Shown here: piece by piece, positions 13,450-31,513 of the stretch
Layout of the letters: every line of letters starts with the position of its first letter
Position numbering within the stretch: position 1 is the first letter of the stretch
DNA from: Escherichia coli
GTDB lineage: Bacteria; Pseudomonadota; Gammaproteobacteria; Enterobacterales; Enterobacteriaceae
Direction: 5' to 3' (one strand)
NCBI RefSeq assembly: GCF_016903815.1
Contig: NZ_CP069972.1
DNA: 64,000 nt
Position numbers and translations under genes: made by a program
Notes under the pieces: generated by a model
What the model was told of the DNA's origin: nothing
The model's input: only the letters and a program-made list of their open reading frames with translations
Database searches by the model: none

Positions 13450-13482
13450 GGCCGCGCCGGATTCTGGCGCGGCCTTTTTTTT
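13450..13482 (+). terminator. Intrinsic terminator between convergent trbC and nikB
   Basis: 9-bp stem GGCCGCGCC/GGCGCGGCC followed by T8. Confidence 0.6.
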
Positions 13483-16180
13483 AACCTGGAGAAGGCGGTT
13501 CCCAGCGTTTATCCTGCTCCGGCGGAGGCAGTGATGCGTCATCGTTGCTGTTCGCCGCGATATAATCGCGGTAGTAGCGTTCACTTCCTTCACGGTGATG
13601 ATCCACGTCCGGTCGCGTAATCCTGTAGTCTTCGTGACCGGTACGGCCTGTCACATTATGCCAGGCAACCATTTCAGCAAAGACCTGGTTAAATTGTTTG
13701 TCGTTTCCTTCTGGTTCAAAACCCATGCGTGGATCACGCCCGAATAATACCGGTGCAATCAAATCCAGTTTATCTGCCAGCGCATTGCGGTCATGGTGAT
13801 TACGGAAAACAACCCTGTCACCATAATCCGTACAGACAAACTCTCCCGTCCGACGATCACGGAAACGAACACTCCCGTTCTTCTGCAAACGGGCCTCGAG
13901 ATCACCGGTATTACCGTATACCGGCGTTCCGCCCGGTTCACAAAGCACGACACAGCGGTCTGTTGTCGTTGTGCGTGACTTATCTTTACGGCGATCGCGA
14001 TAATCCCAGCCTCTCAGCTGCGATACAGCAGCCCTGTCTCCCTGAGCAGCCTGAATTTCGACCCACTGACGGTAAGAGGGTGGATACCACTTCCCGTCAG
14101 CAATAAGTTTCTGCCGCTCATTCCTGATGTCTTCTTTCAGCCTGATCAATGCCTGCATTCGCTGAACTTCTGCAATGTGATAATGCAGCTTACGTAATGC
14201 CGGATCATCGTACTGCGCACGAATGTGTGACTTCCGCAGACGGCATGCCTGATGAATTTCCCGACAACGTTCCCCATAACGCAGATCTGGTTTACGCCAT
14301 TGTTCACGCCATGCCAGATAGCGGGCACGCAGGTCAGCACGGGCCTCAGCTCTGGCTTCACGTCGCTGCCGGCGCAGCATTGGGTCACGTTTACTGCTGA
14401 CCCCGTACCTGTCACTGACAGCCAGCTCCGGGTTATAGCGACTTTCAGGTTGCACCCTGTCAAACAAATCTGCTGGGGCACTCACAAAAGGTCCGGCCTG
14501 TGGCTCTGCACGCCCCAGAGTCAGATCAGGATGAATGCTGCTGGCCTTCACCGGCGTTTGCTCATGATTAAAGGCATCAACGACAACAAGCCCGTGATGT
14601 TGTTTCTGTAGCATCAGTCCCTGTTGTGCAAACAACTCATGACAACGCTGCCAGGTAAACTCACCCTGTGTGATCATTTCTTCAATCTGAGGGCTACAAT
14701 GGCTGATGCTGTATCCCCACAGACTTTCTTTGTCAGAAAACAGTTCGCGTTTGATAGCCCCCTGCGGCCCCGTACCTGTACGCATACGGTGCCATTCTTT
14801 ATCGGTCGCAGGACAGCTCTCCATACGACGACCACGGAAGCGTTCTGTTGGCGTAACCTGGAGGAAAATATCTGTTGGTACAGGCTGCCAGCCACCATCG
14901 AGTTGATTCACATTGTCGAGCGTCAGCAGTGACCATACGCTGTCAGCACGAACGGGAGTCTGGTTATGATCATAACCGTCACAGATAACCAGGTGACCAT
15001 GCTGAACACGCATCCATAATCCCGCTTCAGCCAGTGTGCGGTGAATAGCCTGGCAGTTTTCCAGCCGTCCTTCCCGTGCCATTTCCGGCAGACGTTCTCC
15101 AAGATGACGACAGGCATACTGCTGCAGACTTTCTGTTTCAGCGATTTTTTCCGGGCGAACATCAGCTGCAATGAAGTCCGGATTATAGCGTCCTGGTGCT
15201 TCCACCTGGCTGAAAATGTCTTTTGGTACTGGCGTGTAGTCACCCATTTTTTTCATGAGTTTTTCTGCACACCAGGAGGGACCAAACGAGTCAAGCTGTA
15301 CACCTTCCCTGTTGCGATCCCAGCCATCCATCACCAGAAATTTTCCGTCCATCTGAGACAGGTACAGACCATCTTCCGCAAGACGACGATGCAGGGATAA
15401 CCAGTCATTTACAGGTTCACTGCGTAAACCAGCGACCGCTGTCTGCGCGACATACTCGCGAAAAGTTTGTTTTTTTCCGCGTGTCCAAGCGTTCTGGCGA
15501 TCACGTTCAACGGCAGTTTTGCGAACGATACGATTTCCCGGCGCATGGACCCAGCAACCGTTATCCGGAGCAAAACCATGCTTCAGTTCAAGCTCACGGC
15601 AGGCACGACTGAGTTTTTCCTGACTCCATGATAATCGGTTCAGATAACCCGTTTCAGGGTGTACCCGGTTAACAGCCACATGGACGTGCAGATTATCTGT
15701 ATCAGTATGCACGGCAGAGACATACTGATGGTCGGCAAGGCCGAGTGATTTCAGCGTATGACGTACACTGTCATAAATCTGTTCCGGACGCGGGCTTTCA
15801 TGTGACTGCCAGGAAAGGATGTAGTGAAAAACAGGATCAGTGTCATCTTTTGCATAGTGTGCCTGCCGGGCAATGTACTCCATATCTGCAGCGGCAGTTT
15901 CAAGAGAAGTACAGTTATGAAAGCAGGTGACACCATAAAAGTTGACCCATTCGCAGCCGTCCTTCATGACATCAACCAGCGCCACGAATGACTCATTTCG
16001 AAGACGTGTCGCATAATCAACAAGGCGACTGAAACGGCTTCGGTGCGGTTGTTCAGCCTGCGAAGAAGAAGATAAATCCAGTTCCTCATCGGTCATGTCA
16101 TCCCGGACAGAGACGTAGGATACCAGGTCTTCGAACGAAGACTTGCCGTCCCTTCTCTTTTTCGGAATGACTGCATTCAC
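13481..16180 (-). CDS. nikB: Relaxase NikB (899 aa)
   Basis: HxH relaxase motif in LHVHVAVNRVHPETGY; GTG start with SD GAGGA; directly downstream of nikA and adjacent to oriT; 899 aa as R64 NikB (recollection). Confidence 0.85.
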   Translation of the reverse strand: MNAVIPKKRRDGKSSFEDLVSYVSVRDDMTDEELDLSSSSQAEQPHRSRFSRLVDYATRLRNESFVALVDVMKDGCEWVNFYGVTCFHNCTSLETAAADMEYIARQAHYAKDDTDPVFHYILSWQSHESPRPEQIYDSVRHTLKSLGLADHQYVSAVHTDTDNLHVHVAVNRVHPETGYLNRLSWSQEKLSRACRELELKHGFAPDNGCWVHAPGNRIVRKTAVERDRQNAWTRGKKQTFREYVAQTAVAGLRSEPVNDWLSLHRRLAEDGLYLSQMDGKFLVMDGWDRNREGVQLDSFGPSWCAEKLMKKMGDYTPVPKDIFSQVEAPGRYNPDFIAADVRPEKIAETESLQQYACRHLGERLPEMAREGRLENCQAIHRTLAEAGLWMRVQHGHLVICDGYDHNQTPVRADSVWSLLTLDNVNQLDGGWQPVPTDIFLQVTPTERFRGRRMESCPATDKEWHRMRTGTGPQGAIKRELFSDKESLWGYSISHCSPQIEEMITQGEFTWQRCHELFAQQGLMLQKQHHGLVVVDAFNHEQTPVKASSIHPDLTLGRAEPQAGPFVSAPADLFDRVQPESRYNPELAVSDRYGVSSKRDPMLRRQRREARAEARADLRARYLAWREQWRKPDLRYGERCREIHQACRLRKSHIRAQYDDPALRKLHYHIAEVQRMQALIRLKEDIRNERQKLIADGKWYPPSYRQWVEIQAAQGDRAAVSQLRGWDYRDRRKDKSRTTTTDRCVVLCEPGGTPVYGNTGDLEARLQKNGSVRFRDRRTGEFVCTDYGDRVVFRNHHDRNALADKLDLIAPVLFGRDPRMGFEPEGNDKQFNQVFAEMVAWHNVTGRTGHEDYRITRPDVDHHREGSERYYRDYIAANSNDDASLPPPEQDKRWEPPSPG

Positions 16181-16190: not shown

Positions 16191-16523
16191 TCAACCTTCC
16201 ATTAACTGTTTACGCAATGTATTTGTAAGTTCGGTTATGGCAACAAGCACTTCTGCGTATTCCTTGTCACCGGTTCTTTTTCCCTGAACAAACAGATGCT
16301 TCTGCATCCTTCCCAGTCTCATTAACTCCTTCAGAAAAGCATCATCTGTCCGGGAGTTAATTCGCTTATTCAGTGCTGCATTTCGGATGTAAGCAGATAC
16401 AGTAAGTCCGGAATCTTCAGCATTCTTACAGATAGTTTCATCCTCATCCGGTGAGAACCGGACCGCTCTCAGGATCGTCTTTTGCCGTCTTTCACTACCA
16501 CTTCTTTGACGTTTATCACTCAC
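16191..16523 (-). CDS. nikA: oriT-binding relaxosome accessory protein NikA (RHH, 110 aa)
   Basis: GTG start after AAGGAG; 110-aa product VSDKRQRSGSERRQKTILRAVRFSPDEDE... typical RHH Mob accessory protein; precedes nikB. Confidence 0.8.
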   Translation of the reverse strand: MSDKRQRSGSERRQKTILRAVRFSPDEDETICKNAEDSGLTVSAYIRNAALNKRINSRTDDAFLKELMRLGRMQKHLFVQGKRTGDKEYAEVLVAITELTNTLRKQLMEG

Positions 16524-16540
16524 GGTCAGCTCCTTACTGG

Positions 16541-16625
16541 GGTGTCGGGGCGAAGCCCTGACCAGGAGGCAATTGTATAATCGCGCGTGCGCGGTTATAC
16601 AATTGCACATCCTGTCCCGTTTTTC
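16541..16625 (+). other. oriT: Origin of transfer (oriT) with predicted nick site
   Basis: Perfect 10-bp inverted repeat AATTGTATAA/TTATACAATT (16571-16604) followed 10 bp later by ATCCTG^T (nick predicted 16614/16615) resembling the IncP nic motif; leading genes then point toward this site. Confidence 0.65.
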
Positions 16626-16755: not shown

Positions 16756-17091
16756 ATGGCGTCTAAAAAATTTTACTCAGATGATGACATCCAGCTGGCA
16801 AAAGCTGCTTTATCGGAATTGCCAGACCTCACCGCTCAACGGAAAACATTGCGTGATTTTCTTGATGCCATTCGTGATGACATCATTATCCTGGTAAGGA
16901 CAAAGGGTTATACACTGACAGATGTTCGTGACACGCTCAAAAATGCAGGATATGAAGTAGGAGAGAAAGCACTTCGTGACATTATTCGGGAAGCAGAATC
17001 GAAAAAACCATCCCGCCGTTCTTCCTCTAAAACAGCACCTAAAAAGACAGACTCAGGCAGGAAAGATGGCATCGATATGAACAACAATTGA
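16756..17091 (+). CDS. Hypothetical protein adjacent to oriT (112 aa)
   Basis: ATG at 16756 after GGAGAGA; basic Ser/Lys-rich C-terminal tail; unusually on the + strand for a leading-region gene. Confidence 0.4.
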   Translation: MASKKFYSDDDIQLAKAALSELPDLTAQRKTLRDFLDAIRDDIIILVRTKGYTLTDVRDTLKNAGYEVGEKALRDIIREAESKKPSRRSSSKTAPKKTDSGRKDGIDMNNN

Positions 17092-17176: not shown

Positions 17177-18025
17177 TCAGACTCGTGGCGGCAATGCACC
17201 AGGATAATGCCGTGCAATAATATCATTCAGTTTTTCAACAAGGTCAGAACGCTTAAAGACAATGTGTACGGTCCCTTTCTGGTAGCCACGCACCGTAAAA
17301 TATTCCCCTTCTAACAGCTTACCGACATTGTCACCGTTCCCGAGAAATTCACCATACTGCGCCCCGATGCTGTTCCTGAAGTCAGGAACGTTGCGCCCCT
17401 CCAGCAGATAAAACGGACGTACCAGGTCATCCAGTGCCTCCCGTCCGCTGCAGTCCAGCGTCACACGCCCGTTACTCCAGCGGTACAGTAGGTTTTCAAT
17501 AATTATTTTCTTACCCAGACGGCAGGGATTATTGGTTCTGTAATCCCATGACAATTTCCGGTAGACATCAATCAGCCCCTGTTCAAACGTCTGCATCTTG
17601 CTGGCATTAAGATGGCGGAATGTTGCCAGTACATTGTCCAGGGTGATTTCAGGACAGGTGTCGCTCATCAGCTGGCTGTTCCACTCATCACGCTGGCATG
17701 AACTCATGAAGGTGTACATGCCCGTATCTGTCATCAGGCGGTCCCAGATTTTCCGGTCGGCAAGACGGGTGATATTCCTTTTCGCTTCTTCCGTCTTATC
17801 CATGCGACGAACGGAATCAGTCACGCAGTCTTCAAACCCGTAAAGAAAAATATCACCTGACGCATCGAGCAGAATCTTGCGCGCTGTCGCCAGGCATTCC
17901 ATCGCCTGCATGAACAGTGCAATACCTTCGTTACGCTGCGCGATGATGCGGTCGATAGCTACAGACGGAATAACATCTGTCGTGCCGGCAGTATTCAGGT
18001 CAGCAGTGGGTAAAGTCTGATTCAT
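17177..18025 (-). CDS. Leading-region protein of unknown function (282 aa), first gene behind repeat copy A
   Basis: ATG at 18025 with SD GGAGA; large hairpin repeat immediately upstream; no recognised motif. Confidence 0.55.
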   Translation of the reverse strand: MNQTLPTADLNTAGTTDVIPSVAIDRIIAQRNEGIALFMQAMECLATARKILLDASGDIFLYGFEDCVTDSVRRMDKTEEAKRNITRLADRKIWDRLMTDTGMYTFMSSCQRDEWNSQLMSDTCPEITLDNVLATFRHLNASKMQTFEQGLIDVYRKLSWDYRTNNPCRLGKKIIIENLLYRWSNGRVTLDCSGREALDDLVRPFYLLEGRNVPDFRNSIGAQYGEFLGNGDNVGKLLEGEYFTVRGYQKGTVHIVFKRSDLVEKLNDIIARHYPGALPPRV

Positions 18026-18075
18026 CACATTGTCTCCTCATCGTCACGACTGCCGGGTCAGCCAGGTCATTTCCC

Positions 18076-18386
18076 GGAGGAGCGAAGCTCCTTCTGCCGT
18101 CCGGGTCTTCGGGGATTTCCCCGCAGTGGACCTTTCCGACGGGGGACGCTCACCACGTCACGGGGCAGTTGTCCGGGGGCAGACGCAAAAGTTTTTGACG
18201 CCTGCGGCAAAAAGTTTTGTGGCTGGTACATCTCTCCCCTGGACGACTGAAACGGGATGTGGTCATGTATGTACCCCCGGAAAGTCCGTCTGCGGAGAAC
18301 AGGCCGCAGTGCGGCGGCAGACAGGCAGAGACAGCTGCGCCATCAGGCGCAGTGGCCTTACACACCGTAAGGTGTGCAGGGAGCGC
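18076..18386 (-). promoter_or_regulatory. Family-1 hairpin repeat, copy A (ssDNA-promoter-like, Frpo/ssi-type)
   Basis: Shares about 300 bp with 21469-21964 and 27812-28310, including inverted arms CCCCGCAGTGGACCTTTCC / GGAAAGTCC(A/G)...GGGG and TTGACGC...GCGGCAAAAAGTTTTGTGG. Confidence 0.6.
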
Positions 18387-18501
18387 CGCATACGGCGCGA
18401 CTGAAGAAAAACGACGGCACAACAATGGCATGTGGTGGTCACTGGCACACCACTCCCGCACAGGTGAAAACAGAGAAAACCGCACGACATTTACAACCAA
18501 A

Positions 18502-18594
18502 AAAAGTGAAATTTCTTCACTTTTTCACGCTTATTTTTCGCGTTGATTTGGTGATTATGATGATAAAATAAAGTGAAATTTTTTCACTTTTTCA
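18502..18594. promoter_or_regulatory. Two palindromic operator-like sites overlapping the promoter of the XRE gene
   Basis: AAAAAGTGAA-N5-TTCACTTTTT (18502-18526) and AAAGTGAA-N6-TTCACTTTTT (about 18570-18594) about 70 bp apart, the second abutting the ATG at 18605. Confidence 0.5.
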
Positions 18595-18604
18595 AAGGTG
18601 TTTT

Positions 18605-18856
18605 ATGACCGGCTGGGAACTGCGAATCTGGCGAAAAAGCATGCTCTGGTCACGCGAAAAAGCGGCCAGAGAATTTGGCGTGACGCAGAGAACATGGCAC
18701 GCCTGGGAAAATGCGGAACAGGTGGACGTCACCGTCTGGAGGACCACCCAGGCACTTTCAGTCCGTGACCTGCTGCCTCACATGCAGGGGATGCGTAAGG
18801 CAGATATCATCAGGCGACTGGAAAATGAACTGGGGGAAACGGCAGGGAATGTGTGA
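18605..18856 (+). CDS. Small XRE/Cro-like HTH regulator (83 aa)
   Basis: HTH-like segment WSREKAAREFGVTQRTWHAWE; preceded by paired palindromes; convergent with the Rpn operon. Confidence 0.5.
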   Translation: MTGWELRIWRKSMLWSREKAAREFGVTQRTWHAWENAEQVDVTVWRTTQALSVRDLLPHMQGMRKADIIRRLENELGETAGNV

Positions 18857-18886
18857 GCGTGATTCACAGCCTGGCTGAATGCCAGG

Positions 18887-19069
18887 CTACTGCTCATCAG
18901 GAAACAGCTTTTTCAGTTCTTCACCGGAAAGTCCCGTGACCTCCTGAATCCGTTCCAGCGGCCAGCCTATATCCCGAAGCCGGCAGGCTATTTCCCGCGC
19001 CACTTCAAGAGCCCCTTGTTTAAAACCCTCGTCGAAACCTTTCTGTATAAGACGTTCTGCAATCGTCAT
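18887..19069 (-). CDS. Stand-alone RpnS-like small protein (60 aa), homolog of the Rpn C-terminal domain
   Basis: MTIAERLIQKGFDEGFKQGALEVAREIACRL...TGLSGEELKK aligns with the last 65 aa of the adjacent Rpn; own SD AGGAG; the longer 81-aa ORF would be encoded through the rpn terminator hairpin. Confidence 0.5.
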   Translation of the reverse strand: MTIAERLIQKGFDEGFKQGALEVAREIACRLRDIGWPLERIQEVTGLSGEELKKLFPDEQ

Positions 19070-19092
19070 GCTGTTTGCTCTGCTCCTGCTGA

Positions 19093-19119
19093 CAAAAAAG
19101 CCCGGCATTTTGCCGGGCT
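19093..19119 (-). terminator. Intrinsic terminator after rpn
   Basis: Minus-strand hairpin AGCCCGGC-loop-GCCGGGCT followed by U6. Confidence 0.5.
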
Positions 19120-19131
19120 TTGTGGTTCTCA

Positions 19132-19329
19132 TCAGTGAGTGATTTTCTTCAGTTCGTCATCGGAAAGTCCGGTAGCCTGCTTAATCTGCTCCGGCGTCAT
19201 CCCCATTTTCTGAAGCTGGCACGCAATAGCCAGGGCTTTTTCAAGCGCTCCTTCCATGCGTCCTTCCATGCGTCCTTCCATCCTGCCTTCCTGGCGACCT
19301 TTTTGCTCAAGACGTTCTGCGATAGTCAT
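19132..19329 (-). CDS. Possible intragenic RpnS-like ORF (in-frame internal start, 65 aa)
   Basis: In-frame ATG at 19329 preceded by GAGGAT at -6 to -11 (CATGAGGATAAACTGATG); product corresponds to the Rpn C-terminal domain. Confidence 0.3.
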   Translation of the reverse strand: MTIAERLEQKGRQEGRMEGRMEGRMEGALEKALAIACQLQKMGMTPEQIKQATGLSDDELKKITH

Positions 19330-20058
19330 CAGTTTATCCTCATGCTGCGGCAGACGCTCAGCCAGCGCCCGCATAAATTCCGGTGATACAGAGTCCCCTG
19401 CGTTAACGATGTAATGAATCAGAACACGCACCTGCTCGTCTGAAATTTCCACCATGACCTGCGGGAGTTTGTCCAGCAGCTCCATCATGTCACGATGGCG
19501 GATATGCTTCATCAGCAGCGTCAGTGCGGCCATCCGGCGATGGTTCATGATTTCATTGTCATCAACGACAGTGATATCAACCAGCGGAAACGGCTTTGTG
19601 TATATTTTAGCCGCAAGTGCCGGATTCTCAAAACAGTCCAGCCAGTTCATGCTGTACGGGTACGGGCTGCGCTCACCGTGATAGAACAGCACCGGAATCA
19701 CCAGTGGCAACGTTTTGTGCTGCTCCAGATGTCTCTGCATCGCCGCCACACTGTAGCGTAACATGCGAAAAGGCATGTACAGATTTTCTGTGCTCTGGTG
19801 CTCGATGAGCGTATAAACATAACCATCTTCACCCCCGGTGGTTTTCACGCTCCAGAGGATATCGCTGGCGTACTGATGCAGGTCCGGCTCAACAAAGGTG
19901 GCGGGTTCCAGCTTCAGCGTGGACAGGTCGCACAACTGCCGGTACTCCGCAGGAAGATGCAGTTCCAGAAAATCCCTGGCAACGTCGGGATTCGCCAGGA
20001 ACGACCGGAACGCGGCATCATGCGGCGTGGGCGTTGTGGTGTTTTTCTTCTTACTCAC
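19132..20058 (-). CDS. Rpn family recombination-promoting nuclease (YhgA-like, PDDEXK), 308 aa
   Basis: YhgA-like N-terminal region (LIEHQS...) and conserved C-terminal domain (IAERLEQKG...TGLSDDELKK); GTG start overlapping the stop of the upstream ORF. Confidence 0.6.
   Translation of the reverse strand: MSKKKNTTTPTPHDAAFRSFLANPDVARDFLELHLPAEYRQLCDLSTLKLEPATFVEPDLHQYASDILWSVKTTGGEDGYVYTLIEHQSTENLYMPFRMLRYSVAAMQRHLEQHKTLPLVIPVLFYHGERSPYPYSMNWLDCFENPALAAKIYTKPFPLVDITVVDDNEIMNHRRMAALTLLMKHIRHRDMMELLDKLPQVMVEISDEQVRVLIHYIVNAGDSVSPEFMRALAERLPQHEDKLMTIAERLEQKGRQEGRMEGRMEGRMEGALEKALAIACQLQKMGMTPEQIKQATGLSDDELKKITH
19249..19284. repeat. 12-bp tandem repeat x3 inside rpn (encodes EGRMEGRMEGRM)
   Basis: TCCTTCCATGCG repeated twice plus variant TCCTTCCATCCT; in frame. 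Confidence 0.6.
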
Positions 20059-20444
20059 GGTTCCTCCATCAAATCAGCAGCATCGCAGCAATCATCGCCC
20101 AAATCCCCACAACCGAGAGGACAGCAATTGCGTTCAAAGCCATGACAACAATAGCCGCGTTCTGAGTCACGGCGTATTTCTTCAGCAATCTCTTCTGCGG
20201 AAAGGTAATCAAACTCCTCACGGGCCAGTTCCAGGACCAGTAGATGTTGTTCTGTCGGCAATGTGGCCACAAAATTATCAATAGCAGCACTCAAACGTCG
20301 CTGATATAGCTCATAAACAAGACCACAACGGGGCATTAGTTCTTCGGATAATAGTTCCAGTTTTGAGCGAATTCTGTCAGCGTTGAAAGTGACTTCATCA
20401 AAAGACATATGAAAAGCTTTGTCAGTATCAAAACAAGACTTCAT
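20055..20444 (-). CDS. Hypothetical protein with Cys-rich acidic C-terminus (129 aa), coupled to rpn
   Basis: ATG at 20444 with SD GGAGA; C-terminal CCHGFERNCCPLGCGDLGDDCCD; stop TGA overlaps rpn GTG start (GTGA). Confidence 0.45.
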   Translation of the reverse strand: MKSCFDTDKAFHMSFDEVTFNADRIRSKLELLSEELMPRCGLVYELYQRRLSAAIDNFVATLPTEQHLLVLELAREEFDYLSAEEIAEEIRRDSERGYCCHGFERNCCPLGCGDLGDDCCDAADLMEEP

Positions 20445-20620
20445 TGTTATCTCCAGCCCTCCCGGGCCCTGAATGAAAGAGAATCTGTTTCCCTTTTCTG
20501 TTTTTTGTGGAGACACCATGCAACACAGACGTCGTGATGTTTTTCATCTTGCTCACGGTTCCTCCTGGTAAAGTACCTGAACACATCCTGCCACCTGCAC
20601 AGGCAGACGGCAGGGGTTAA

Positions 20621-20887
20621 TCAGTGACAGACCCGTTCAATTTCAAGCGCGCGGAGCAGGTGGCCCCATTCGCTGACTTTCATGGCGGGGATACGTACCC
20701 GCTTCTGCTCACTGCAGCGTCTGGCGATATGACCGCCCATCGCCAGGACGTCCGGGTTAATCTCATCCGGTGCCAGTTCCTGGCGTCTGAAGCGGGTATG
20801 GCGGTGCAGGGGTTTGTTCTCCCGCAGGCACTCTTCACGCAGACGCTTTACATACTCGGCGGTTGCGAAGATAATTGATGGTCTCAT
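20621..20887 (-). CDS. Hypothetical leading-region protein (88 aa)
   Basis: ATG at 20887 with GGAG 9 nt upstream; basic protein; no recognised domain. Confidence 0.4.
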   Translation of the reverse strand: MRPSIIFATAEYVKRLREECLRENKPLHRHTRFRRQELAPDEINPDVLAMGGHIARRCSEQKRVRIPAMKVSEWGHLLRALEIERVCH

Positions 20888-20979
20888 GGCATAATCTCCA
20901 TAGTTAGTGAATGAGATGCCGGACTTCCGTACGGGGAAGCGCCAGCGGAGAAAGGCAGGGTTTATCGCCCTGCTTTTTT

Positions 20980-21414
20980 TCATTCCGGACAGCGACGCAG
21001 TGCCAGCGCGAGCGCTTTCATCTTCCAGCCTTCCGGCGTGCGGTACATCACCTTCCAGTAGCCGTCGATGAACACATAATGGAAGCGCACCTCTTCAGTG
21101 CTTTCCGTGGCGATGGCCTCCCTGAAAGAACGGTACTCACGCGCCTCACTGTCCATCCGGAAACCACTGTCACGTCCGTAATAAGCCGTCACACCGTCCA
21201 CCGGGTTCTGAAGCGTATGCCCGGCGGGTTTGTCGCAACGGGGACCGAGGCAACGGATATCACCGTGTTCAACCAGGGCTTCGGCCTGCTGACCGGTGGC
21301 ATAGTGGGTATGCAGGATGCGACCGTTCCAGGTCGGCTCACCGTGCAGGTGGCAGTAAACGGTACGGAACACCCCGTCGCGGCAAAAAACGGAAATCGTG
21401 CTGCTGACTGTCAT
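20980..21414 (-). CDS. Hypothetical leading-region protein (144 aa) behind repeat copy B
   Basis: ATG at 21414 with SD GGAGA; the longer 251-aa ORF in the track reads through the GC-rich repeat and is rejected. Confidence 0.5.
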   Translation of the reverse strand: MTVSSTISVFCRDGVFRTVYCHLHGEPTWNGRILHTHYATGQQAEALVEHGDIRCLGPRCDKPAGHTLQNPVDGVTAYYGRDSGFRMDSEAREYRSFREAIATESTEEVRFHYVFIDGYWKVMYRTPEGWKMKALALALRRCPE

Positions 21415-21468
21415 GAAAACGTCTCCTTCTGCTGAATCAGGTCGCCGGGCCGACCGGTTGCTCCCCCG

Positions 21469-21964
21469 GAGGGGCGAAAGCCCCTTCTGCCGTCCACTTC
21501 TTCGGGGTTTCTCCCCGCAGTGGACCTTTCCGATGGGGCAGCGACTGCCACGGCACGGGGCAGTTGTCCGGGGGCAGACGCAAAAGTTTTTGACGCTTGC
21601 GGCAAAAAGTTTTGTGGCTGGTACATCTCTCCCCTGGACGGCTGAAACGTGTTGTGGCCGCTTCAGCCCCCGGAAAGTCCACAGCGGGGAAACAGGCCGC
21701 AGGGGGGGCGGCGGAAGGGCAGACAACTGCGCCATCAGGCGCAGTTTCCTTACACACCGTCAGGTGTGCAGGGAGCGCAGGTCACGGCGCGACAGAGGCG
21801 GCGCGACCGGAACGGTCGCTGCAAGCCTGGTTTTTCAGACATCGGACCGTAGCGGCAGCCCGAAACCGCGCCAGCGGGTTCGGCGGAGACTGGCGGGTGC
21901 GCCAGCAGCTGCCTGTCGGAGTCGGGCCTGACGACCGGATGCCGCCAGGCAGCCGGGAGCCGAA
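21469..21964 (-). promoter_or_regulatory. Family-1 hairpin repeat, copy B
   Basis: About 500 bp shared with copy C and about 300 bp with copy A; long imperfect inverted repeats. Confidence 0.6.
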
Positions 21965-22146
21965 GGGTGTCCCCGCCCCCGGGAGTCAGAACAACAGAAA
22001 CGACAAAACAGAAAAATGCCTCACACTATGACAGGCAGGAAGGGTAGCGCCGCAGGCGCGGCCCTCCTGTATTTCAGGCAGGCGTAAGCCTGCCAGGGTT
22101 TTCCGGGGGCCTGGCAGGCCATCCCCCCGCCGGAGCGGGGAGTAAA

Positions 22147-22647
22147 TCACCGACGGAACACATGACCGTCAATAAAGGTGAAGGAGTCCAGGAATAAATC
22201 CCGCGCATACGCCTCATAGTCAAAATAGAGCGCCACCGTCTCCGGCACGTCAGCCAGCAGGCCGGTATCACTGACGAACTCAACCGCAAAAGCCTCCTCA
22301 CTGTCAGCCTCGCCCCACCAGGCATCGCGGAAGCTGTCAAAATCCGTCTCACCGGTATCATCCACCCAGAGACGATAAGCCTCTTCGCAGCCTTCATCCC
22401 GCGCCTGGCGGAAGCCTTCAACCCAGGCCCAGTTGATATGGCATTCAGAGGCCATATTCCCCGGGAATCCCTCATAATCCTGAAACATCAGTTCCGGGTC
22501 GGTTTCATCCTGGTGAAGGGCACGGCAGGCGGCGAAAAAGTCGCGTTCATCATCAAACGTTGTCAGGTCAAACCAGCGGCCAGCGATGCTTCCACAGTTG
22601 TATTTGTGCCAGGTTCCAACGTATACAGCAGGTGCAACAACAGACAT
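22147..22647 (-). CDS. ardA: Antirestriction protein ArdA (166 aa)
   Basis: MSVVAPAVYVGTWHKYNCGSIAGRWFDLTTFDDE...; acidic; SD GGAGGA; matches ColIb-P9 ArdA (recollection). Confidence 0.85.
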   Translation of the reverse strand: MSVVAPAVYVGTWHKYNCGSIAGRWFDLTTFDDERDFFAACRALHQDETDPELMFQDYEGFPGNMASECHINWAWVEGFRQARDEGCEEAYRLWVDDTGETDFDSFRDAWWGEADSEEAFAVEFVSDTGLLADVPETVALYFDYEAYARDLFLDSFTFIDGHVFRR

Positions 22648-22659
22648 TCCCGAATCCTC

Positions 22660-22992
22660 CATAGTCACATGTTCTGCGACACCGGGCGGTGCCGTGCCTC
22701 CATCTTTGCCGGGCCTGCAGGGATGCAAGGGCGCAAGGGAAGCCGCAGCCCGACGCACACGGCTGGCGGGAGTTGGAGGGTGAGACCGCGAAATCTGAGC
22801 GGGTGAACGACCGGAAAATCACGGCAGACGGGAAGGAGGGACCGGGTGACCGCAGCGGTTCATCTTACCTTGCATCCCGCCCGCAGAAGCCCGGCTACGA
22901 TGGAGGCACGGCACAGCCCGCACACGACACGGCGGCCACATAACTGAAAACCCACAAGGCCATGCCCCGCATGGCCGGGTAAAAGCGGAGCC
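22660..22992 (-). promoter_or_regulatory. Family-2 hairpin repeat, copy 1 (upstream of ardA)
   Basis: About 330 bp nearly identical to 31955-32286; about 45-nt inverted arms (GTGCCGTGCCTCCATC...GATGGAGGCACGGCAC) separated by about 150 nt. Confidence 0.6.
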
Positions 22993-23108
22993 GGCGGCGA
23001 CGTCCTTATTCCGGCGAGAGCAGGGAGCACACCGCATGATCTCCAGACCACCCCTGGAACGAAACGATCATGACCGGCATGTCCCTGCGTAAAATATACA
23101 TGCCTGGT

Positions 23109-23705
23109 TCACCGGAGAATATCTGTGATATCCACAAGTTTTCTGTCGCGCAGCCAGTCCTGCGCTTCACGCACCACACAACTGTCCGGTTTCACCGCTT
23201 TCAGCGATGATGCCAGTCGCTTGATCAACATCACCAGTTCCCGTGTCTGTATGTCCGGCATTGTCTCCGGCGGAGCAGGGGGACTCTCATTTCCGACGCT
23301 CATCCCATGCGCTTCCAGTGTGGCACGGACAAACCAGGCGGCATCGACCAGTTGCTGTCCAATCCAGGCCAGATCGGCATTTCTGTCACGGGCTGCCATT
23401 CGCTCGCCCGACAGCGCCTTGCTGATATGGCTGCGCACCAGATTATCCAGGAGTGCCTGCGCTTCTTCCGGTGAAAAGCCACCTGGTATCTCTGTGCGCA
23501 ACAGCCCTTTCCTGTACAGAAGCTGCAGCAGATCAACCTGCGACCGCACAGCAACTATCAGTACATAACGGACAACATTCGCACTGGCAGTGGTTTCTGT
23601 ATCATTCAGCAGTTCTTCCGGATCGTTCCCCCCGGTGTTGCAGAGCAACGGCAACAGAGGTCGCATCCACGCGGGAACCTGGTATTTTTCGTCTGATTTC
23701 ATCAT
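23109..23705 (-). CDS. Hypothetical protein (198 aa), translationally coupled to psiA
   Basis: ATG at 23705 overlaps psiA stop (ATGATGA); SD GGAGAA; no recognised domain. Confidence 0.5.
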   Translation of the reverse strand: MMKSDEKYQVPAWMRPLLPLLCNTGGNDPEELLNDTETTASANVVRYVLIVAVRSQVDLLQLLYRKGLLRTEIPGGFSPEEAQALLDNLVRSHISKALSGERMAARDRNADLAWIGQQLVDAAWFVRATLEAHGMSVGNESPPAPPETMPDIQTRELVMLIKRLASSLKAVKPDSCVVREAQDWLRDRKLVDITDILR

Positions 23706-24421
23706 ATTACGTTCTCCAGCTTGTTCGGGATCATCCACTGCTCAAGTGCACGTACCTGTACCGGTGCACCACGACCGGCCTCACCGGCTTCAAAAATCAG
23801 CCGCCAGAGTGGTTCCTCCTGCCAGAAAAACCGGTCAAATGATGACAGTGATGGAAAACGCCCGCACCACCCCCAGAAAATCGTTTCCAGATCATGCTCC
23901 TCAACAACACCAGACCAGCGGGACAACCAGCTTCCGACCGTGGCGGGAGTATGAAACGCAAGGTCAATCTGCGCCTGAGCAAAACATGTCTGGTATTCCA
24001 GTTCCCGTCGTTCTGCCTCACGTTCCCGCTGGCGGCTGTATTTCTGCTCTGTCAGCGTGGTTTTCTGACGACGACGCTCACCTTCACGAAAAGGCACGGA
24101 CGGGAACAGACGGTGCCCCGCATCGGATGGCAGGGGAAGAACACAGACTTCCCCAAAACTTTCAATCAGTTTATCCACGGCAGCCAGCCACAGGAGACGG
24201 TTGCCATGAAATTCCTCCTTCGTCAGCGCAGGGGCAAAAAAGCGGAGATCGGTCAGCGAAATCCGGCGACTGCCATTCAGGCAGCGAAAGAAAGCGGTGG
24301 CATAAGGCCATGCTGAAAGTGTGCGTCCCTGACGACGACGTTGTTCTGTGACAGCCACCGCCTGCATGGCGGCCTGTTGTTCTGCGCTGAGGGGGATCAG
24401 TGCCCGTGAACGTGCGCTCAT
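23702..24421 (-). CDS. psiA: Plasmid SOS inhibition protein PsiA (239 aa)
   Basis: [53 protein letters not shown]...; ATGA overlap with psiB stop. Confidence 0.85.
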
Positions 24422-24852
24422 GCCTGACCTCCTTCTGCCATCAGGATATGGATGATGTCGTTAACACTGTATCCCTGCGCATCCAGTGTCGCGGCAAGCG
24501 CCAGCGTGTGACTGATCGCGACAGGCGTGAAGATATGTTGCACCTGAACGACGGCGAAAGGCTGTCCACCACCATTCACCAGAACCAGCATCCAGAGCTG
24601 AGAGACGTCTCCCGGCGAACATAATGCCAGGTGGAAACGTTCGTGGGCTGGCGTGAAACGAACCTGGACGGGGAAAAAGCCCCCGAACTCACTGCCATAC
24701 TCTCCGTTCATCACCCAGTTAGCCGGTGCGTCCACTTCACGCATCACCTCGTGAGTGAGATTACGGCGCATATCGCTTCCCGCAGCACGGATATCTTCAT
24801 ATTCCTGTGCGTTCATGGACTGCAGGGCATTCAGGGTCAGTTCAGTTTTCAT
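24418..24852 (-). CDS. psiB: Plasmid SOS inhibition protein PsiB (144 aa)
   Basis: [40 protein letters not shown]...; SD AGGGAG. Confidence 0.9.
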
Positions 24853-24906
24853 CACGGTATCTCCCTTGCTGCCGCCCCGTCTCCGGCGGGGCGGTGTGGT
24901 TGTTCA

Positions 24907-26865
24907 TCAGGCGGCATCAGCCAGGTTAGCGGTGTGTTCAGTGGCATCCGTCTGTGGACGTGGTGCACACATCCAGCCAGGCACCCAGCGGTTGTCTTTC
25001 ATATGGAACTCTGCATGTTCAGCCGCATCGCCTTTCTTCATTTTCTCCGCGTCCCGTGCGGCACCGGACAGTCCGGCCTCATTCAGGGCTGCGATAATCT
25101 GCGGCTTTTTCAGGTGTCCGAAGAAGTTTGCTTTTGTCGGCTGCCACCAGTCGCGCATGTGAAAGCCGATGGCGGTTTCCAGCGAGTCCAGCGGACTGCG
25201 TGACGTGTGACCACACTCGCGGGTCTGGACACCGTTAAGACTGCACGCGGTACAGAAACTGAGCAGGGATAACAGCACCTCCTGGCTAAGTGACAGGAAC
25301 GTCGTCATATCCCGTTCCCATCCTTCCGGCAGCAGGGCAGCAAAACGAGAGTGTTCTGCCATCAGCGCCATGAATGCGGCACCTTCCTTCCCTGACGGTG
25401 CATCGCTGGTCAGCGCATAATGCTCACATTCCAGGCGAATTCTGGCGGGACTACTATGCGCTTTGCTGTCAAACACATTCAGGCAGAGCGTCCATGCCAG
25501 CAGTGCCAGGGATTTGTCCGGTTGCTGCATCAGTGCTGCCTGGACTGCCAGCGTGCGCTCTGAGGTCAATTTAGTCAGCAACGGCAGACTAATTTCCTCC
25601 ACTGACGCGCTCTCCAGCCCCTGTTCCGTGCGGTCAGCGTCGTCAGCCACATCATCCTCACTGCGCAACTGCACACCACGCTGGATACACACATTACCGT
25701 AACGCCAGGACACCACCACGCCACTTCCGGCACGCATCTCCGGCGTCCACGCCCTGACCTTCGCCATGCAGTCAATCAGCTTCATTTCTGCTGCCAGCAG
25801 GTCAGATTCCTCACACTGGTTTTCCAGCGAGTCGTAACGAGCCATCAGTTCGTTCAGACGTTCGTCTTCCGCCTCCGTCAGCACCGCTTCCGGCTCCGGC
25901 AGGTTGCGGTATGCCCGGGCATCTTCACGGCACTCACCGACAGGCTCCATGCGTCCGGCGCACCATTCCCAGCCTTCGGCTTCCCGAAGGAACTCTGCGA
26001 CAGCCTGGAGTTTTTCCAGCAGGGCGGCATCGAGCGCCACGCGGTCGACATAACCGTCCCCGTCATCGCTGAACAAATCGGTGCGCAGTTCGTCTGGCGA
26101 GAAGGCATCAGCCCCCACGAAGCGGAATTTACTGTTCCCCGCCACCGCCACTTCACTTTCGGTCACCAGACGACGAATGGTCTGTACTTCCGGTTTACCG
26201 CCCCATCCCGACTGGCAGGCGGCTTCAAACACCTGCACCTGACGCGCGGTGTCGTTCTCCAGCGCCAGCGCCTGACAGTGCTCTGTGGTGATGCGGTCTT
26301 CTGCCAGCGCATCGAGGATAACCGGAGCAAGGTCTGCCAGTTTCAGCATTCGCTGAACGTGGCGGGGTGAATAGCCCAGCAAATCACCGATTTGTGCAGG
26401 CGTTTTGCCTTCCTGCGCCATTGCGCGGAATCCGGCAATCTGTTCGGCAGGGTGCATATCCCGACGCTGACCGTTCTCGGTCATCGATGCGGCAGTCGCC
26501 AGCTCCTGCGGAATGACCTTCACGCGTACAGGCCAGTCAGCCGGAAGGATGTTGCGCTCTGCCAGCATGTTGAGTGCTGCCAGTCGGCGACCGCCTGCGG
26601 CGACAGCGTAACGGTCACCAGGCAGGGTATGCACGACCAGATTCTGCAGCAGTCCGACGCCCTTAATGGACTCCGCCAGTTCGCTGACGGACTCCGCAGA
26701 ATACGGCACCGTGCGCACATTCAGCGGTGATTTAATCAGCGAGGCCAGCGGCACGCTCACTTCCTCCGTCTGCGCCAGCAGGGCAGACAGGACAGTTTCC
26801 TGCGTTTTTACAGATTTACGGCTTGCTTTGCGGGTGGTTTCTGGTTCACACTTCGTTACAGGCAT
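24907..26865 (-). CDS. ParB-like nuclease domain protein of the leading region (about 652 aa)
   Basis: N-terminal ParB/Sulfiredoxin-like region (…VVHTLPGDRYAVAAGGRRLAAL…) plus long C-terminal extension; upstream of psiB. Confidence 0.65.
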   Translation of the reverse strand: MPVTKCEPETTRKASRKSVKTQETVLSALLAQTEEVSVPLASLIKSPLNVRTVPYSAESVSELAESIKGVGLLQNLVVHTLPGDRYAVAAGGRRLAALNMLAERNILPADWPVRVKVIPQELATAASMTENGQRRDMHPAEQIAGFRAMAQEGKTPAQIGDLLGYSPRHVQRMLKLADLAPVILDALAEDRITTEHCQALALENDTARQVQVFEAACQSGWGGKPEVQTIRRLVTESEVAVAGNSKFRFVGADAFSPDELRTDLFSDDGDGYVDRVALDAALLEKLQAVAEFLREAEGWEWCAGRMEPVGECREDARAYRNLPEPEAVLTEAEDERLNELMARYDSLENQCEESDLLAAEMKLIDCMAKVRAWTPEMRAGSGVVVSWRYGNVCIQRGVQLRSEDDVADDADRTEQGLESASVEEISLPLLTKLTSERTLAVQAALMQQPDKSLALLAWTLCLNVFDSKAHSSPARIRLECEHYALTSDAPSGKEGAAFMALMAEHSRFAALLPEGWERDMTTFLSLSQEVLLSLLSFCTACSLNGVQTRECGHTSRSPLDSLETAIGFHMRDWWQPTKANFFGHLKKPQIIAALNEAGLSGAARDAEKMKKGDAAEHAEFHMKDNRWVPGWMCAPRPQTDATEHTANLADAA

Positions 26866-26923
26866 AATCATCCCCTTATAATTGCTTATGTCCTGCCGGA
26901 CGTTCGCGCGTCCGGCACCTCTC

Positions 26924-27157
26924 TTACTTAAGAATCCCGAAATCCCTGATGTACTGGTTCATCCAGTACCCGGCACAGTCCTCAAAATTCCAGGAGCGCC
27001 AGATCAACGTGCCATCCTGACGGACAACCAGGCGAAAATGCGTTCCCTGATCATCCTCGATAAAGACGTTCCGGTACTGTGCGGCAACGGCTTCCGCCTG
27101 TTCGCGGGTAAAGGAGCCGTCCGGCAGTCCCTGAAGTATTCTGAAATATTCGCTCAT
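26924..27157 (-). CDS. Small hypothetical leading-region protein (77 aa)
   Basis: ATG at 27157 with GGAG 8 nt upstream; between ssb and the ParB-like gene. Confidence 0.45.
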
Positions 27158-27214
27158 CCTCATATCTCCGGTGATGCCCCGCACAGGGCGGGGCGGTTGT
27201 CACAGTCAGCCCGA

Positions 27215-27742
27215 TCAGAACGGGATGTCGTCTGAAAACCCGTAATCCTCCCCCTCCGGCGGTTGCGGCTGAGGCTCTGGCTGCGCGGCCTTACGTCCAC
27301 GGCCTTTCGTTTTCGCGCCACCTTTTTTCGTCGCGTCAGCACTCTGTGGCTGCCCATTCTGCTGAGGCTTCGGTTGCGCCTGAGCGTTCTGCTGTGGTGC
27401 ACGTCCCAGCATCTGCACGGTGCCCGTGGTCTTAACAAGAATTTCAGTGACGTAACGGGTGATACCGTTATCTTCCCAGCTACGGGTGCGAAGCTGACCT
27501 TCGATGTAGACCTGCGCACCCTTGCGCAGATATTCACCTGCCACTTCCGCGAGCTTGCCGAACAGCACCACGCGGTGCCATTCCGTCTGCTCCCGCATCT
27601 CCCCCGTCTGTTTGTCACGCCAGCTTTCTGATGTGGCCACCTGCAGGTTTGCCACTGCGCCCCCGTTGGGGATGTAACGGACTTCCGGATCATTGCCCAG
27701 ACGCCCGACGAGGATGACCTTGTTGATACCACGTGCACTCAT
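27215..27742 (-). CDS. ssb: Plasmid single-stranded DNA-binding protein (175 aa)
   Basis: [48 protein letters not shown]...; Gly/Pro/Gln-rich linker and acidic DDIPF tail; SD AGGAGG. Confidence 0.9.
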
Positions 27743-27811
27743 AAGAACCTCCTGACTGAAAGATGTGAGATAAACCGGATACCGGCGACGGGACGTTCAT
27801 GTGCCCCTTCA

Positions 27812-28310
27812 GAGGAGCGAAAGCTCCTCCTGCCGTCCACTTCACAGGGGTTTCTCCCCGCAGTGGACCTTTCCGATGGGGGCCCGTTTACCGCCTCACG
27901 GGGCAGCTGTCCGGGGGCGGACGCAAAATTTTTTGCCGGGTTCATGGCTAAAAATTTTGTGGCCGGTGCATCTCACCCTGGACAGATGGAACGGGAGGGG
28001 GTTACGTCTGCCCCCCGGAAAGTCCACAGCGGGGAAACAGGCCGCAGGGGGGGCGGCAGGAGGGAGGACTGCTGCGCCATCAGGCGCAGTTTCCTCACAC
28101 ACCGTCAGGTGTGCAGGGAGCGCAGGTCACGGCGCGACAGGGGCGGCGCGACCGGAACGGTCGCTGCAAGCCCGGGTTTTCACGCATCGGACCGTAGCGG
28201 CAGCCCGAAACCGCGCCAGCGGGTTCGGCGGAGACTGGCGGGTGCGCCAGCAGCTGCCCGTCGGAGTCGGGCCTGACGACCGGATGCCGCCAGGCAGCCG
28301 GGAGCCGAAG
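27812..28310 (-). promoter_or_regulatory. Family-1 hairpin repeat, copy C (upstream of ssb)
   Basis: Near-identical to copy B over about 500 bp; homology ends at about 28310, right where the group II intron begins. Confidence 0.6.
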
Positions 28311-28316
28311 TGGGCG

Positions 28317-31467: not shown

Positions 31468-31513
31468 GTTCTCGTCTCCTTTACAGGGGCGGCATTGCCG
31501 CCCCGTCCGTTAA

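What the first reader, a model, noticed from the sequence alone, without database searches (positions are those of the whole stretch)
16541..16625. oriT nick-site prediction fixes which strand is transferred and explains leading-region gene polarity
Seen in sequence: inverted repeat AATTGTATAA/TTATACAATT followed by ATCCTG^T. If the + strand is nicked here and transferred 5' to 3', the leading region (16.7 kb onward) enters first and its minus-strand genes are templated by the incoming strand, which matches the observed polarity.
Basis: partly seen in the sequence, partly recalled or inferred. Interest (0 to 1): 0.3.

Follow-up and report, generated by a model that had tools for sequence, protein, structure and literature searches.

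The report
R64-type plasmid transfer origin (oriT)

Summary

The nick region and the 8-bp repeat are identical to plasmid R64. nikA (RHH protein) and nikB (MOBP relaxase, 895/899 identical to R64) lie directly to the left on the minus strand.

Three independent sequence tests favour the + strand as the transferred strand:
- The MOBP nick motif YATCCTG|Y with its repeat on the 5' side is on the + strand.
- Across 14 related oriTs, non-Watson-Crick positions in the repeats are G·T on the + strand in 36 cells and A·C in none.
- The three Frpo/ssi single-strand promoter elements of the leading region fold 19-25 kcal/mol better on the + strand.

About 21 of 25 mapped genes between 16.7 and 35.9 kb are on the minus strand, including ardA, psiAB and ssb.

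One detail is less familiar. A 176-bp mosaic segment (16422-16597) swaps the NikA DNA-binding N-terminus together with compensatory changes in both repeat arms, relative to R64, ColIb-P9 and R621a. The same variant occurs in the highly mobile pCol1B9 of Salmonella Typhimurium.

Verdict: correct, and already known. The nick itself was not mapped here.

The parts
16544..16562 (+). Upstream 8-bp inverted repeat GTCGGGGC-GAA-GCCCTGAC, containing a G·T pair on the + strand
   Evidence: It is identical in R64 and nearly invariant in 14 related oriTs; the G·T pair is present in all 14.
16569..16586 (+). Nick-distal arm of the 18-nt imperfect inverted repeat
   Evidence: I1. Nine of the 15 pairs in this helix change on both sides across 14 oriTs.
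16589..16606 (+). Nick-proximal arm of the inverted repeat. By homology with R64 'repeat A' this is the NikA-binding sequence.
   Evidence: PMC4743918 states that the nick region plus repeat A form the core needed for transfer. That repeat A is the nick-proximal arm is from my memory of Furuya & Komano 1997.
16607..16615 (+). Nick region ACATCCTG|T. The predicted cleavage is between G16614 and T16615 on the + strand, 8 nt after the repeat.
   Evidence: It is identical to R64 and invariant in 13 of 14 related oriTs. It matches the MOBP consensus YATCCTG|Y. It is the only such motif in the window with an adjacent long repeat. The cleavage position is inferred, not mapped here.
16191..16523 (-). 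nikA, encoding the RHH relaxosome accessory protein (110 aa; GTG start with an AAGGAG Shine-Dalgarno sequence)
   Evidence: NCBIfam MobA at 4e-34. Pfam NikA-like. PDB 2BA3 NikA(1-51) at 8e-17. It is 97/110 identical to R64 NikA, and all 13 differences fall in residues 1-33.
13481..16180 (-). nikB, encoding the MOBP relaxase (899 aa)
   Evidence: NCBIfam TraI/MobA(P) relaxase at 3.6e-124. It is 895/899 identical to R64 NikB; Tyr22 and the HTDTDNLHVHV motif are visible in the sequence.
16422..16597 (.). Mosaic segment that differs from R64. It covers nikA codons 1-34, the spacer, and the variable part of both repeat arms.
   Evidence: 51 differences in 176 nt, against 5 in the 622 nt to its left and roughly 1-3% to its right.
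16756..17091 (+). yggA-like first gene of the leading side (annotated 'MobC' in databases). It is divergent from nikA and lies on the + strand.
   Evidence: PMC6112013 calls yggA the first gene of the R64 leading region; its pCTX-M3 homologue represses transfer genes.
18040..18420 (+). Frpo/ssi class-1 single-strand promoter-like element A, upstream of the DUF4942 gene
   Evidence: It belongs to a direct-repeat family. It folds at -107.2 kcal/mol on the + strand and -87.1 on the - strand. It shows the strongest strand asymmetry among 638 windows, z = -4.9. It has a weak match to an F Frpo region.
21440..21970 (+). Frpo/ssi class-1 element B
   Evidence: -167.7 vs -148.4 kcal/mol; z = -4.2; 92.9-94.1% identity over 68-70 nt to two F leading-region sites.
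27780..28320 (+). Frpo/ssi class-1 element C, upstream of ssb
   Evidence: -169.1 vs -144.5 kcal/mol; z = -3.3; it matches F just upstream of ssb.
22650..22970 (+). Class-2 repeat upstream of ardA
   Evidence: It is 96% identical to the copy at 31958-32257 and 89% identical to the F sequence upstream of klcA. PMC12672017 describes class-2 ssDNA promoters for ardA and klcA. Its strand asymmetry is small, -2.2 kcal/mol.
31945..32260 (+). Class-2 repeat upstream of the klcA/ArdB-like antirestriction gene
17177..35809 (-). Co-oriented leading-region gene block: DUF4942, Rpn, ardA, psiA, psiB, parB-like, DUF905, ssb, DUF1380, klcA-like, DNA methylase, DUF1281 and others
   Evidence: Genes were mapped from the annotated pDETEC47 record, with family hits. 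About 21 genes are on the - strand and 4 on the + strand.

Best explanation
[quoted passage not shown] It is of the R64 type and is served by NikA and NikB.

Initiation. NikA, a ribbon-helix-helix protein, binds the nick-proximal arm of the 18-nt inverted repeat and recruits the MOBP relaxase NikB. NikB cleaves the + strand between G16614 and T16615 and stays covalently bound to the 5' end at T16615.

Transfer. The + strand is transferred 5' to 3', so coordinates from 16.6 kb upward enter the recipient first. nikB, nikA and the two inverted repeats enter last. There the repeats can refold as hairpins in the single strand and present the nick region to NikB for the rejoining reaction.

Early expression. 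In the recipient, the incoming + strand forms Frpo/ssi hairpin promoters. Host RNA polymerase uses these to transcribe the minus-sense leading genes (ardA, psiB, ssb, klcA and others) before the complementary strand is made.

What is shown and what is inferred. Shown here: the sequence anatomy, the identity of the nick region and relaxase to R64, covariation of the repeat arms with each other and with the NikA N-terminus, + strand-specific folding, and the gene polarity. Inferred: the exact cleavage position, covalent attachment, 5'-to-3' direction, NikA binding to the proximal arm, and promoter activity. These rest on homology and published work on R64, RP4, F, ColIb-P9 and pESBL.
For: - The nick region TTGCACATCCTGTCCCGTTTTTC and the 8-bp repeat are identical to R64.
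- The motif fits the MOBP consensus, with the repeat 5' of it and the relaxase bound to the 5' cleaved end (PMC3772185).
- NikB is 99.6% identical to R64 NikB. NikA matches the NikA RHH structure 2BA3.
- Across 14 oriTs, 94.3% of cells in the repeats are paired. Ten pairs change on both sides, which 0 of 500 shuffles reach, and slid controls give only 34-43% paired.
- Non-Watson-Crick cells in those repeats are 36 G·T on the + strand and 0 A·C, spread over 9 pair positions.
- The + strand oriT fold is -26.0 kcal/mol against -22.9 for the - strand.
- The three Frpo/ssi class-1 elements fold 19-25 kcal/mol better on the + strand. They are the three most + strand-favoured of 638 windows and are homologous to F Frpo regions.
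- About 21 of 25 genes between 16.7 and 35.9 kb are on the minus strand.
- The same oriT variant (280/281 identity) is found in TY474p2, the pCol1B9 plasmid. The corresponding P2 plasmid of SL1344 is described as highly mobile and is blocked by a deletion of oriT and nikA (PMC3879352).
- The published deletion primers match the window exactly at 16151-16190 and 16629-16668.
- Early ssDNA-promoter-driven expression of IncI1 leading genes is published (PMC12672017; PMC11541004).
Against: - No nick was mapped for this sequence, and I could not read the original R64 nick-site papers. The exact G|T position and the '8 bp from the repeat' detail rest on my memory of Furuya & Komano 1991 plus the MOBP consensus.
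- The NikA-binding repeat differs from R64 at several positions. Recognition by this NikA is inferred from co-variation, not tested.
- Four genes on the leading side are on the + strand.
- The two class-2 elements show almost no strand asymmetry in folding.
- G·T counts are per cell and per alignment column and are not phylogenetically independent. The loop-proximal columns of alignment A2 are uncertain.
- The published deletion of oriT and nikA also removes nikA, so it does not localise oriT on its own.
Confidence: 0.93

Rival explanations
1. The oriT is real, but the nick is on the minus strand, or transfer runs the other way, so that nikAB, trb and tra enter first and the 16.7-36 kb block enters last.
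For: Nothing was mapped experimentally here. Inverted repeats are nearly symmetric, so a hairpin can form on either strand; the - strand fold is still -22.9 kcal/mol with z = -4.9.
Against: - ATCCTG is read on the cleaved strand in MOBP systems and here lies on the + strand. The - strand carries no such motif next to the repeat.
- The G·T versus A·C count is 36:0 in favour of the + strand.
- The Frpo/ssi elements favour the + strand by 19-25 kcal/mol.
- The relaxase would lie on the leading side, contrary to the usual arrangement.
- ardA, psiB and ssb are documented early-entering IncI1 genes.
Confidence: 0.03
2. The inverted repeat is mainly a transcriptional element: an operator for NikA autoregulation of nikAB, or a terminator or attenuator between the divergent nikA and yggA genes. 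On this view the ATCCTG next to it is coincidental.
For: - RHH accessory proteins are often autorepressors, for example MobC of RA3.
- The repeat lies between divergent genes, 45 nt upstream of the nikA start.
- YATCCTGY is frequent in the window, with 18 copies.
Against: - The 23-nt nick region is identical to the functional R64 oriT. It is conserved even in 1.5-4 kb mobilisable plasmids that have no nikB, and in some cases no nikA.
- The distance between repeat and motif is fixed.
- An operator role would be additional to oriT function, not an alternative to it.
Confidence: 0.03
3. The variant repeat makes this a defective or orphan oriT that its own NikA does not recognise efficiently, left behind by recombination.
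For: The repeat differs from R64, ColIb-P9 and R621a, which all share one NikA. The segment is clearly mosaic.
Against: - The changes are compensatory in both arms.
- They co-occur with changes confined to the NikA DNA-binding N-terminus.
- The identical variant is present in 39-120 sequenced plasmids, most of them typed as conjugative. These include pCol1B9/P2, which is highly mobile.
Confidence: 0.02

Closest known systems
oriT of IncI1 plasmid R64 with NikA/NikB (Furuya & Komano 1991, 1997, 2000; NikA RHH structure PDB 2BA3)
   Same: - Identical nick region and 8-bp repeat.
- Same layout: 8-bp repeat, 17/18-nt imperfect repeat, 8 nt, then the nick.
- nikA and nikB immediately adjacent and read away from oriT.
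- NikB 895/899 identical.
- Same leading-region gene order.
   Different: The central part of both repeat arms differs by compensatory swaps (R64 TGTAATAGCG / CGGTATTACA; here TGTATAATCG / CGGTTATACA). NikA differs at 13 of its first 33 residues, including the predicted beta-strand (KTVVRTLRF against KTILRAVRF).
oriT of IncP plasmid RP4 with TraJ/TraI (MOBP prototype)
   Same: Core nick hexamer ATCCTG, with an inverted repeat immediately 5' of it on the cleaved strand and the relaxase attached to the 5' end (PMC3772185). An accessory protein binds the repeat. The relaxase has a catalytic Tyr22 and a His-rich motif (seen; the RP4 details are from memory).
   Different: There is no sequence similarity outside the nick core. 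The base after the nick is T here and C in RP4. The accessory protein belongs to the NikA (RHH) family rather than TraJ, and the mating-pair system is MPF_I rather than MPF_T.
Frpo/ssi single-strand promoters of F and ColIb-P9, and the six ssDNA promoters of the IncI1 plasmid pESBL (Masai & Arai 1997; Bates et al. 1999; PMC12672017)
   Same: Three class-1 and two class-2 repeats sit upstream of minus-strand leading operons. They are homologous to F sequences upstream of ssb and klcA. The class-1 elements fold far better on the predicted transferred strand.
   Different: Promoter activity and transcription start sites were not tested here. The class-2 elements show no clear strand preference in folding energy.
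R64-like oriT mimics on small mobilisable plasmids (pEC156; NTP16/pCERC7-type nikA plasmids)
   Same: The same 8-bp repeat, the same repeat-plus-nick architecture and the same ACATCCTGTCC core. pEC156 is mobilised by R64 (PMC4743918).
   Different: Those plasmids lack nikB, and often nikA, and rely on a helper plasmid. Their repeat sequences form further variants.

Membership tests
R64-type (IncI-complex) oriT | Nick-region sequence identical or near-identical to R64 (…TTGCACATCCTG|TCCCG…) | tested here: met
   23 of 23 nt are identical to R64 in alignment A1. ACATCCTGTCC is conserved in 13 of 14 related oriTs.
R64-type (IncI-complex) oriT | A 17/18-nt imperfect inverted repeat ending 8 nt 5' of the nick, plus an 8-bp inverted repeat further upstream | tested here: met
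   PMC3817090 describes the two repeat sets (17 bp and 8 bp) of R64 oriT.
R64-type (IncI-complex) oriT | NikA-binding repeat sequence the same as in R64 | tested here: not met
   The arms differ at several positions in a compensatory way. This makes it a variant within the family, not an identical copy of the R64 site.
R64-type (IncI-complex) oriT | Adjacent nikA (RHH accessory protein) and nikB (relaxase) operon read away from oriT | tested here: met
R64-type (IncI-complex) oriT | Site- and strand-specific cleavage by NikAB at G|T | not testable with these tools
   This needs nick mapping on relaxosome DNA. The original R64 papers were not available to read.
MOBP relaxase nick sites | Consensus 5'-(C/T)ATCCTG(C/T)-3' with an inverted repeat immediately 5' on the same strand | tested here: met
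   CATCCTGT lies at 16608-16615 on the + strand and the repeat ends at 16606. The consensus is taken from PMC3772185.
MOBP relaxases | N-terminal catalytic tyrosine and an HxDx(3-4)HxH-type motif | tested here: met
   Y22 and HTDTDNLHVHV (residues 158-168) are visible in the sequence. NCBIfam TraI/MobA(P) relaxase scores 415 bits against a cut-off of 250.
Leading region with Frpo/ssi single-strand promoters | Sequence homology to F Frpo regions, located upstream of leading operons | tested here: met
   Class-1 elements B and C show 92.9-94.1% identity over 68-73 nt, plus weaker flanking matches, to two F sites. One of these sites lies just upstream of F ssb.
Leading region with Frpo/ssi single-strand promoters | Extensive hairpin formed specifically by the transferred strand | tested here: met
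   The + strand is favoured by 19-25 kcal/mol for all three class-1 elements. They rank as the top three of 638 windows. The class-2 elements favour the + strand by only 1-2 kcal/mol.
Leading region with Frpo/ssi single-strand promoters | Transcription initiates on single-stranded DNA in the recipient | not testable with these tools
   This is shown for the related plasmid pESBL by RNA-seq and 5' RACE (PMC12672017), not for this sequence.

The most novel reading that the evidence does not exclude
The 176-bp mosaic segment (16422-16597) may be a portable specificity cassette. It carries the DNA-reading N-terminus of NikA together with matching changes in both arms of its binding repeat, and sits in an otherwise R64-identical relaxosome with the same NikB and the same nick region.

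If NikA of R64/ColIb-P9/R621a cannot serve this oriT and this NikA cannot serve theirs, then IncI1 plasmids fall into orthogonal oriT-recognition groups that exchange by recombination. That would affect which co-resident plasmids and small oriT mimics each group can mobilise.

Separately, the 36:0 excess of G·T over A·C in oriT hairpins could serve as a purely computational indicator of which strand is transferred.
Probability: 0.4. Interest if true: 0.3.

Novelty: already known. Interest (0 to 1): 0.15.

Why it matters
The result fixes the orientation of this plasmid segment. The + strand is the transferred strand and 16.6 kb upward enters first. This identifies which genes can be expressed from single-stranded DNA early in conjugation: ardA, klcA, psiB, ssb and the methylase can, whereas yggA, the HTH pair, impCAB and the intron ORF cannot.

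This is useful for annotation but adds nothing new to the biology of IncI1 transfer, which has been worked out on R64, ColIb-P9 and pESBL.

The only modestly new point is the NikA N-terminus/repeat co-variation cassette. It suggests different oriT specificities among otherwise near-identical IncI1 relaxosomes.

Tried and rejected
- I tried to read the original R64 papers (PMC208999, PMC179678, PMC161590). None is held. The exact R64 nick position therefore rests on memory, plus the MOBP consensus quoted in PMC3772185.
- I expected from memory that the IncI-gamma plasmid R621a carried a different NikA/oriT and might be the source of this variant. That was checked and rejected: R621a, R64 and ColIb-P9 all carry the same NikA, WP_001283947.1.
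- The apparent excess of YATCCTGY (18 copies against 8.1 expected) was considered as possible secondary nick sites. It was rejected because no other copy has an adjacent long repeat. The excess is plausibly a codon effect (ATC-CTG) that dinucleotide shuffles do not model.
- The promoter and terminator consensus scan around oriT gave only weak matches and nothing for a nikA promoter. It was not used.
- Folding-energy asymmetry did not discriminate strands for the class-2 elements.
- Accessions AP005147 and AP001918 are not in the plasmid collection. The RefSeq equivalents NC_005014 and NC_002483 were used instead.
- The large protein and metagenome searches and structure prediction were not used, because close annotated relatives answered the question.

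Full report
**1. The observation**

AATTGTATAA (16571-16580) and TTATACAATT (16595-16604) are the core of an 18-nt imperfect inverted repeat, 16569-16586 / 16589-16606. It has a single T·G mismatch and a 2-nt gap between the arms. Eight nucleotides after the repeat (ACATCCTG, 16607-16614) comes T16615.

A second, 8-bp repeat lies upstream at 16544-16562 (GTCGGGGC-GAA-GCCCTGAC).

The repeat pattern occurs once in the window and never in 100 shuffles. The 85-nt stretch folds as single-stranded DNA at -26 kcal/mol, z = -6.7.

The 8-mer YATCCTGY alone is common, with 18 copies. Only the copy at 16608 has a long repeat directly 5' of it.

**2. What it is**

The 281 bp around the site match 2,189 plasmid records, almost all from Escherichia, Salmonella and Shigella. 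Most are typed conjugative, with a MOBP relaxase and an MPF_I mating system.

To the left, on the minus strand, lie two genes:
- nikA (16191-16523) is a 110-aa ribbon-helix-helix protein that matches the solved NikA(1-51) structure 2BA3.
- nikB (13481-16180) is an 899-aa MOBP relaxase, 895/899 identical to R64 NikB, with Tyr22 and the HTDTDNLHVHV motif.

Aligned with R64 itself (NC_005014), the nick region TTGCACATCCTGTCCCGTTTTTC and the 8-bp repeat are identical.

The rest of the window has the IncI1/ColIb layout: trbABC, nikBA, oriT, leading region, impCAB, parA, colicin Ib, repZ.

**3. Which strand is nicked, and in which direction it travels**

For MOBP relaxases the consensus 5'-(C/T)ATCCTG(C/T)-3' is read on the cleaved strand. 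The inverted repeat lies 5' of it, and the relaxase becomes attached to the 5' cleaved end (PMC3772185; that paper cites the R64 nick-site study). Here the motif is on the + strand.

I could not read Furuya & Komano 1991. The exact G|T position and the 8-nt spacing for R64 are therefore from memory, although they agree with the consensus.

Three further lines of evidence point the same way.

(a) *Covariation in the repeats.* In an alignment of 14 diverse R64-type oriTs, 94.3% of repeat cells are paired. Ten pairs change on both sides, which 0 of 500 shuffles reach, and slid controls give 34-43% paired. Complementarity itself is therefore under selection.

(b) *Strand asymmetry in the oriT hairpins.* The non-Watson-Crick cells in these repeats are G·T on the + strand 36 times, across 9 pair positions. 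They are never A·C, which would be G·T on the minus strand. This is expected if the hairpins act in the single-stranded + strand. The cells are not phylogenetically independent, so this evidence is suggestive rather than a formal probability.

(c) *Strand asymmetry in the leading-region elements.* The leading region contains three copies of a Frpo/ssi class-1 element (18040-18420, 21440-21970, 27780-28320) and two class-2 repeats (22650-22970, 31945-32260). They are homologous to F-plasmid sequences upstream of ssb and klcA.
- The class-1 elements fold 19-25 kcal/mol better on the + strand than on the minus strand.
- In a scan of 638 windows across the whole 64 kb, they are the three most + strand-favoured positions (z = -4.9, -4.2, -3.3). 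The mean difference across all windows is 0.26 kcal/mol.
- The class-2 elements show no clear asymmetry.

**4. Gene polarity**

I mapped the annotated genes of a 98%-identical plasmid onto the window and added family hits.

About 21 genes between 16.7 and 35.9 kb are on the minus strand: DUF4942, Rpn, ardA, psiA, psiB, a parB-like gene, DUF905, ssb, DUF1380, a klcA-like gene, a DNA methylase, DUF1281 and several hypotheticals.

Four are on the + strand: yggA (16756-17091, the first gene after oriT), a hypothetical/HTH pair (18374-18856) and the reverse-transcriptase ORF of a group II intron (28911-30578).

Beyond 36 kb, impCAB and parA are on the + strand. [quoted passage not shown]

**5. How this compares with what is known**

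All of this is established for IncI1 and F plasmids:
- ardA, psiB and ssb of ColIb-P9 are induced in the recipient within minutes.
- Frpo/ssi hairpins act as single-strand promoters.
- Six such promoters were mapped by 5' RACE on the IncI1 plasmid pESBL, including class-1 elements (ssi1-3) and class-2 elements (ardA, klcA).
- A survey of 21,907 elements found anti-defence, methylase and ssb genes oriented for transcription from the transferred strand, with the relaxase on the lagging side.

The finding is therefore right, but it is a rediscovery.

**6. The one less familiar detail**

Relative to R64, differences are concentrated in 16422-16597: 51 in 176 nt. By contrast there are 5 in the 622 nt to the left and 1-3% to the right. 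This segment covers nikA codons 1-34 and the variable part of both repeat arms.

The arm changes are compensatory (R64 TGTAATAGCG / CGGTATTACA; here TGTATAATCG / CGGTTATACA). All 13 NikA differences lie in residues 1-33, the RHH DNA-binding part, including the predicted beta-strand.

Across five repeat types, each has its own NikA N-terminus, while the C-terminal half of NikA is conserved.

R64, ColIb-P9 and R621a all share one NikA. The variant here is the one found in TY474p2/pCol1B9 of Salmonella Typhimurium ST4/74 and in 39-120 other records.

That variant is functional. The corresponding P2 plasmid of SL1344 is described as highly mobile and is blocked by a deletion of oriT and nikA. The published deletion primers match this window exactly, bounding 16191-16628.

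Whether the variant has a distinct specificity from R64 was not tested. PMC3817090 notes a comparable link between repeat sequence and NikA in IncB-type plasmids.

**7. Verdict**

- Observation: confirmed.
- Interpretation: supported, with two caveats. The nick is inferred from homology and sequence tests rather than mapped, and the polarity rule has four exceptions.
- Novelty: already known.
- Interest: low.

Noticed in passing
window 28330-30680 (+): A group II intron lies on the + strand, immediately to the right of the Frpo/ssi element upstream of ssb. Rfam gives RF02012 at 28361-28510 and RF00029 at 30583-30659, and the RT/maturase/HNH ORF spans 28911-30578. Its sense strand is the predicted transferred strand, antisense to the surrounding leading genes. 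It is absent at this place in R64, ColIb-P9, R621a and TY474p2 but present in pDETEC47. Reverse splicing into the single-stranded transferred DNA is a speculative possibility.
   Followed up: partly
window 16548-16568 and 16683-16702: The motif GGGCG(A/C)AGCCCTG(A)CCAGGAG, which contains the 8-bp oriT repeat, occurs a second time about 135 nt to the right. There it forms its own inverted repeat (16679-16697) that overlaps the -35 of a promoter-like site in front of yggA (16693-16722). The second copy is conserved in R64. Its function is unknown; it could be a second protein-binding site or an operator.
   Followed up: partly
window 16756-17091 (+): The first gene on the leading side is widely annotated as 'molybdopterin-guanine dinucleotide biosynthesis protein MobC', although it has no Pfam or NCBIfam hit. 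It corresponds to yggA of R64. The yggA homologue in pCTX-M3, orf35, represses transfer genes (PMC6112013). The database name therefore looks like a mis-annotation.
   Followed up: partly
whole window, both strands: YATCCTGY occurs 18 times against 8.1 expected from dinucleotide shuffles, and 0 of 100 shuffles reach 18. This is probably a codon-pair effect (ATC-CTG). None of the other copies has an adjacent long repeat.
   Followed up: partly
window 46200-46800 (+): There is a further region of + strand-favoured single-strand folding (z about -3.2 in the 200-nt scan). It lies roughly 1.2-1.7 kb from the repZ regulatory pseudoknot at 47918-48066. It was not examined.
   Followed up: no
window 40779-42659 (-), 47918-48066 (-), 7088-7245 (-): The window also contains a colicin Ia/Ib-type gene (626 aa), the repZ pseudoknot of the IncI replicon, and a sok antitoxin RNA within the transfer region. 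These confirm that the window comes from a ColIb-type I-complex plasmid.
   Followed up: partly
L012-L016 (small plasmids of 1.5-4 kb): Hundreds of small Col-type plasmids carry R64-like oriT copies with the same 8-bp repeat and the same ACATCCTGTCC core. Their long-repeat sequences differ, and most have no relaxase gene.
   Followed up: partly
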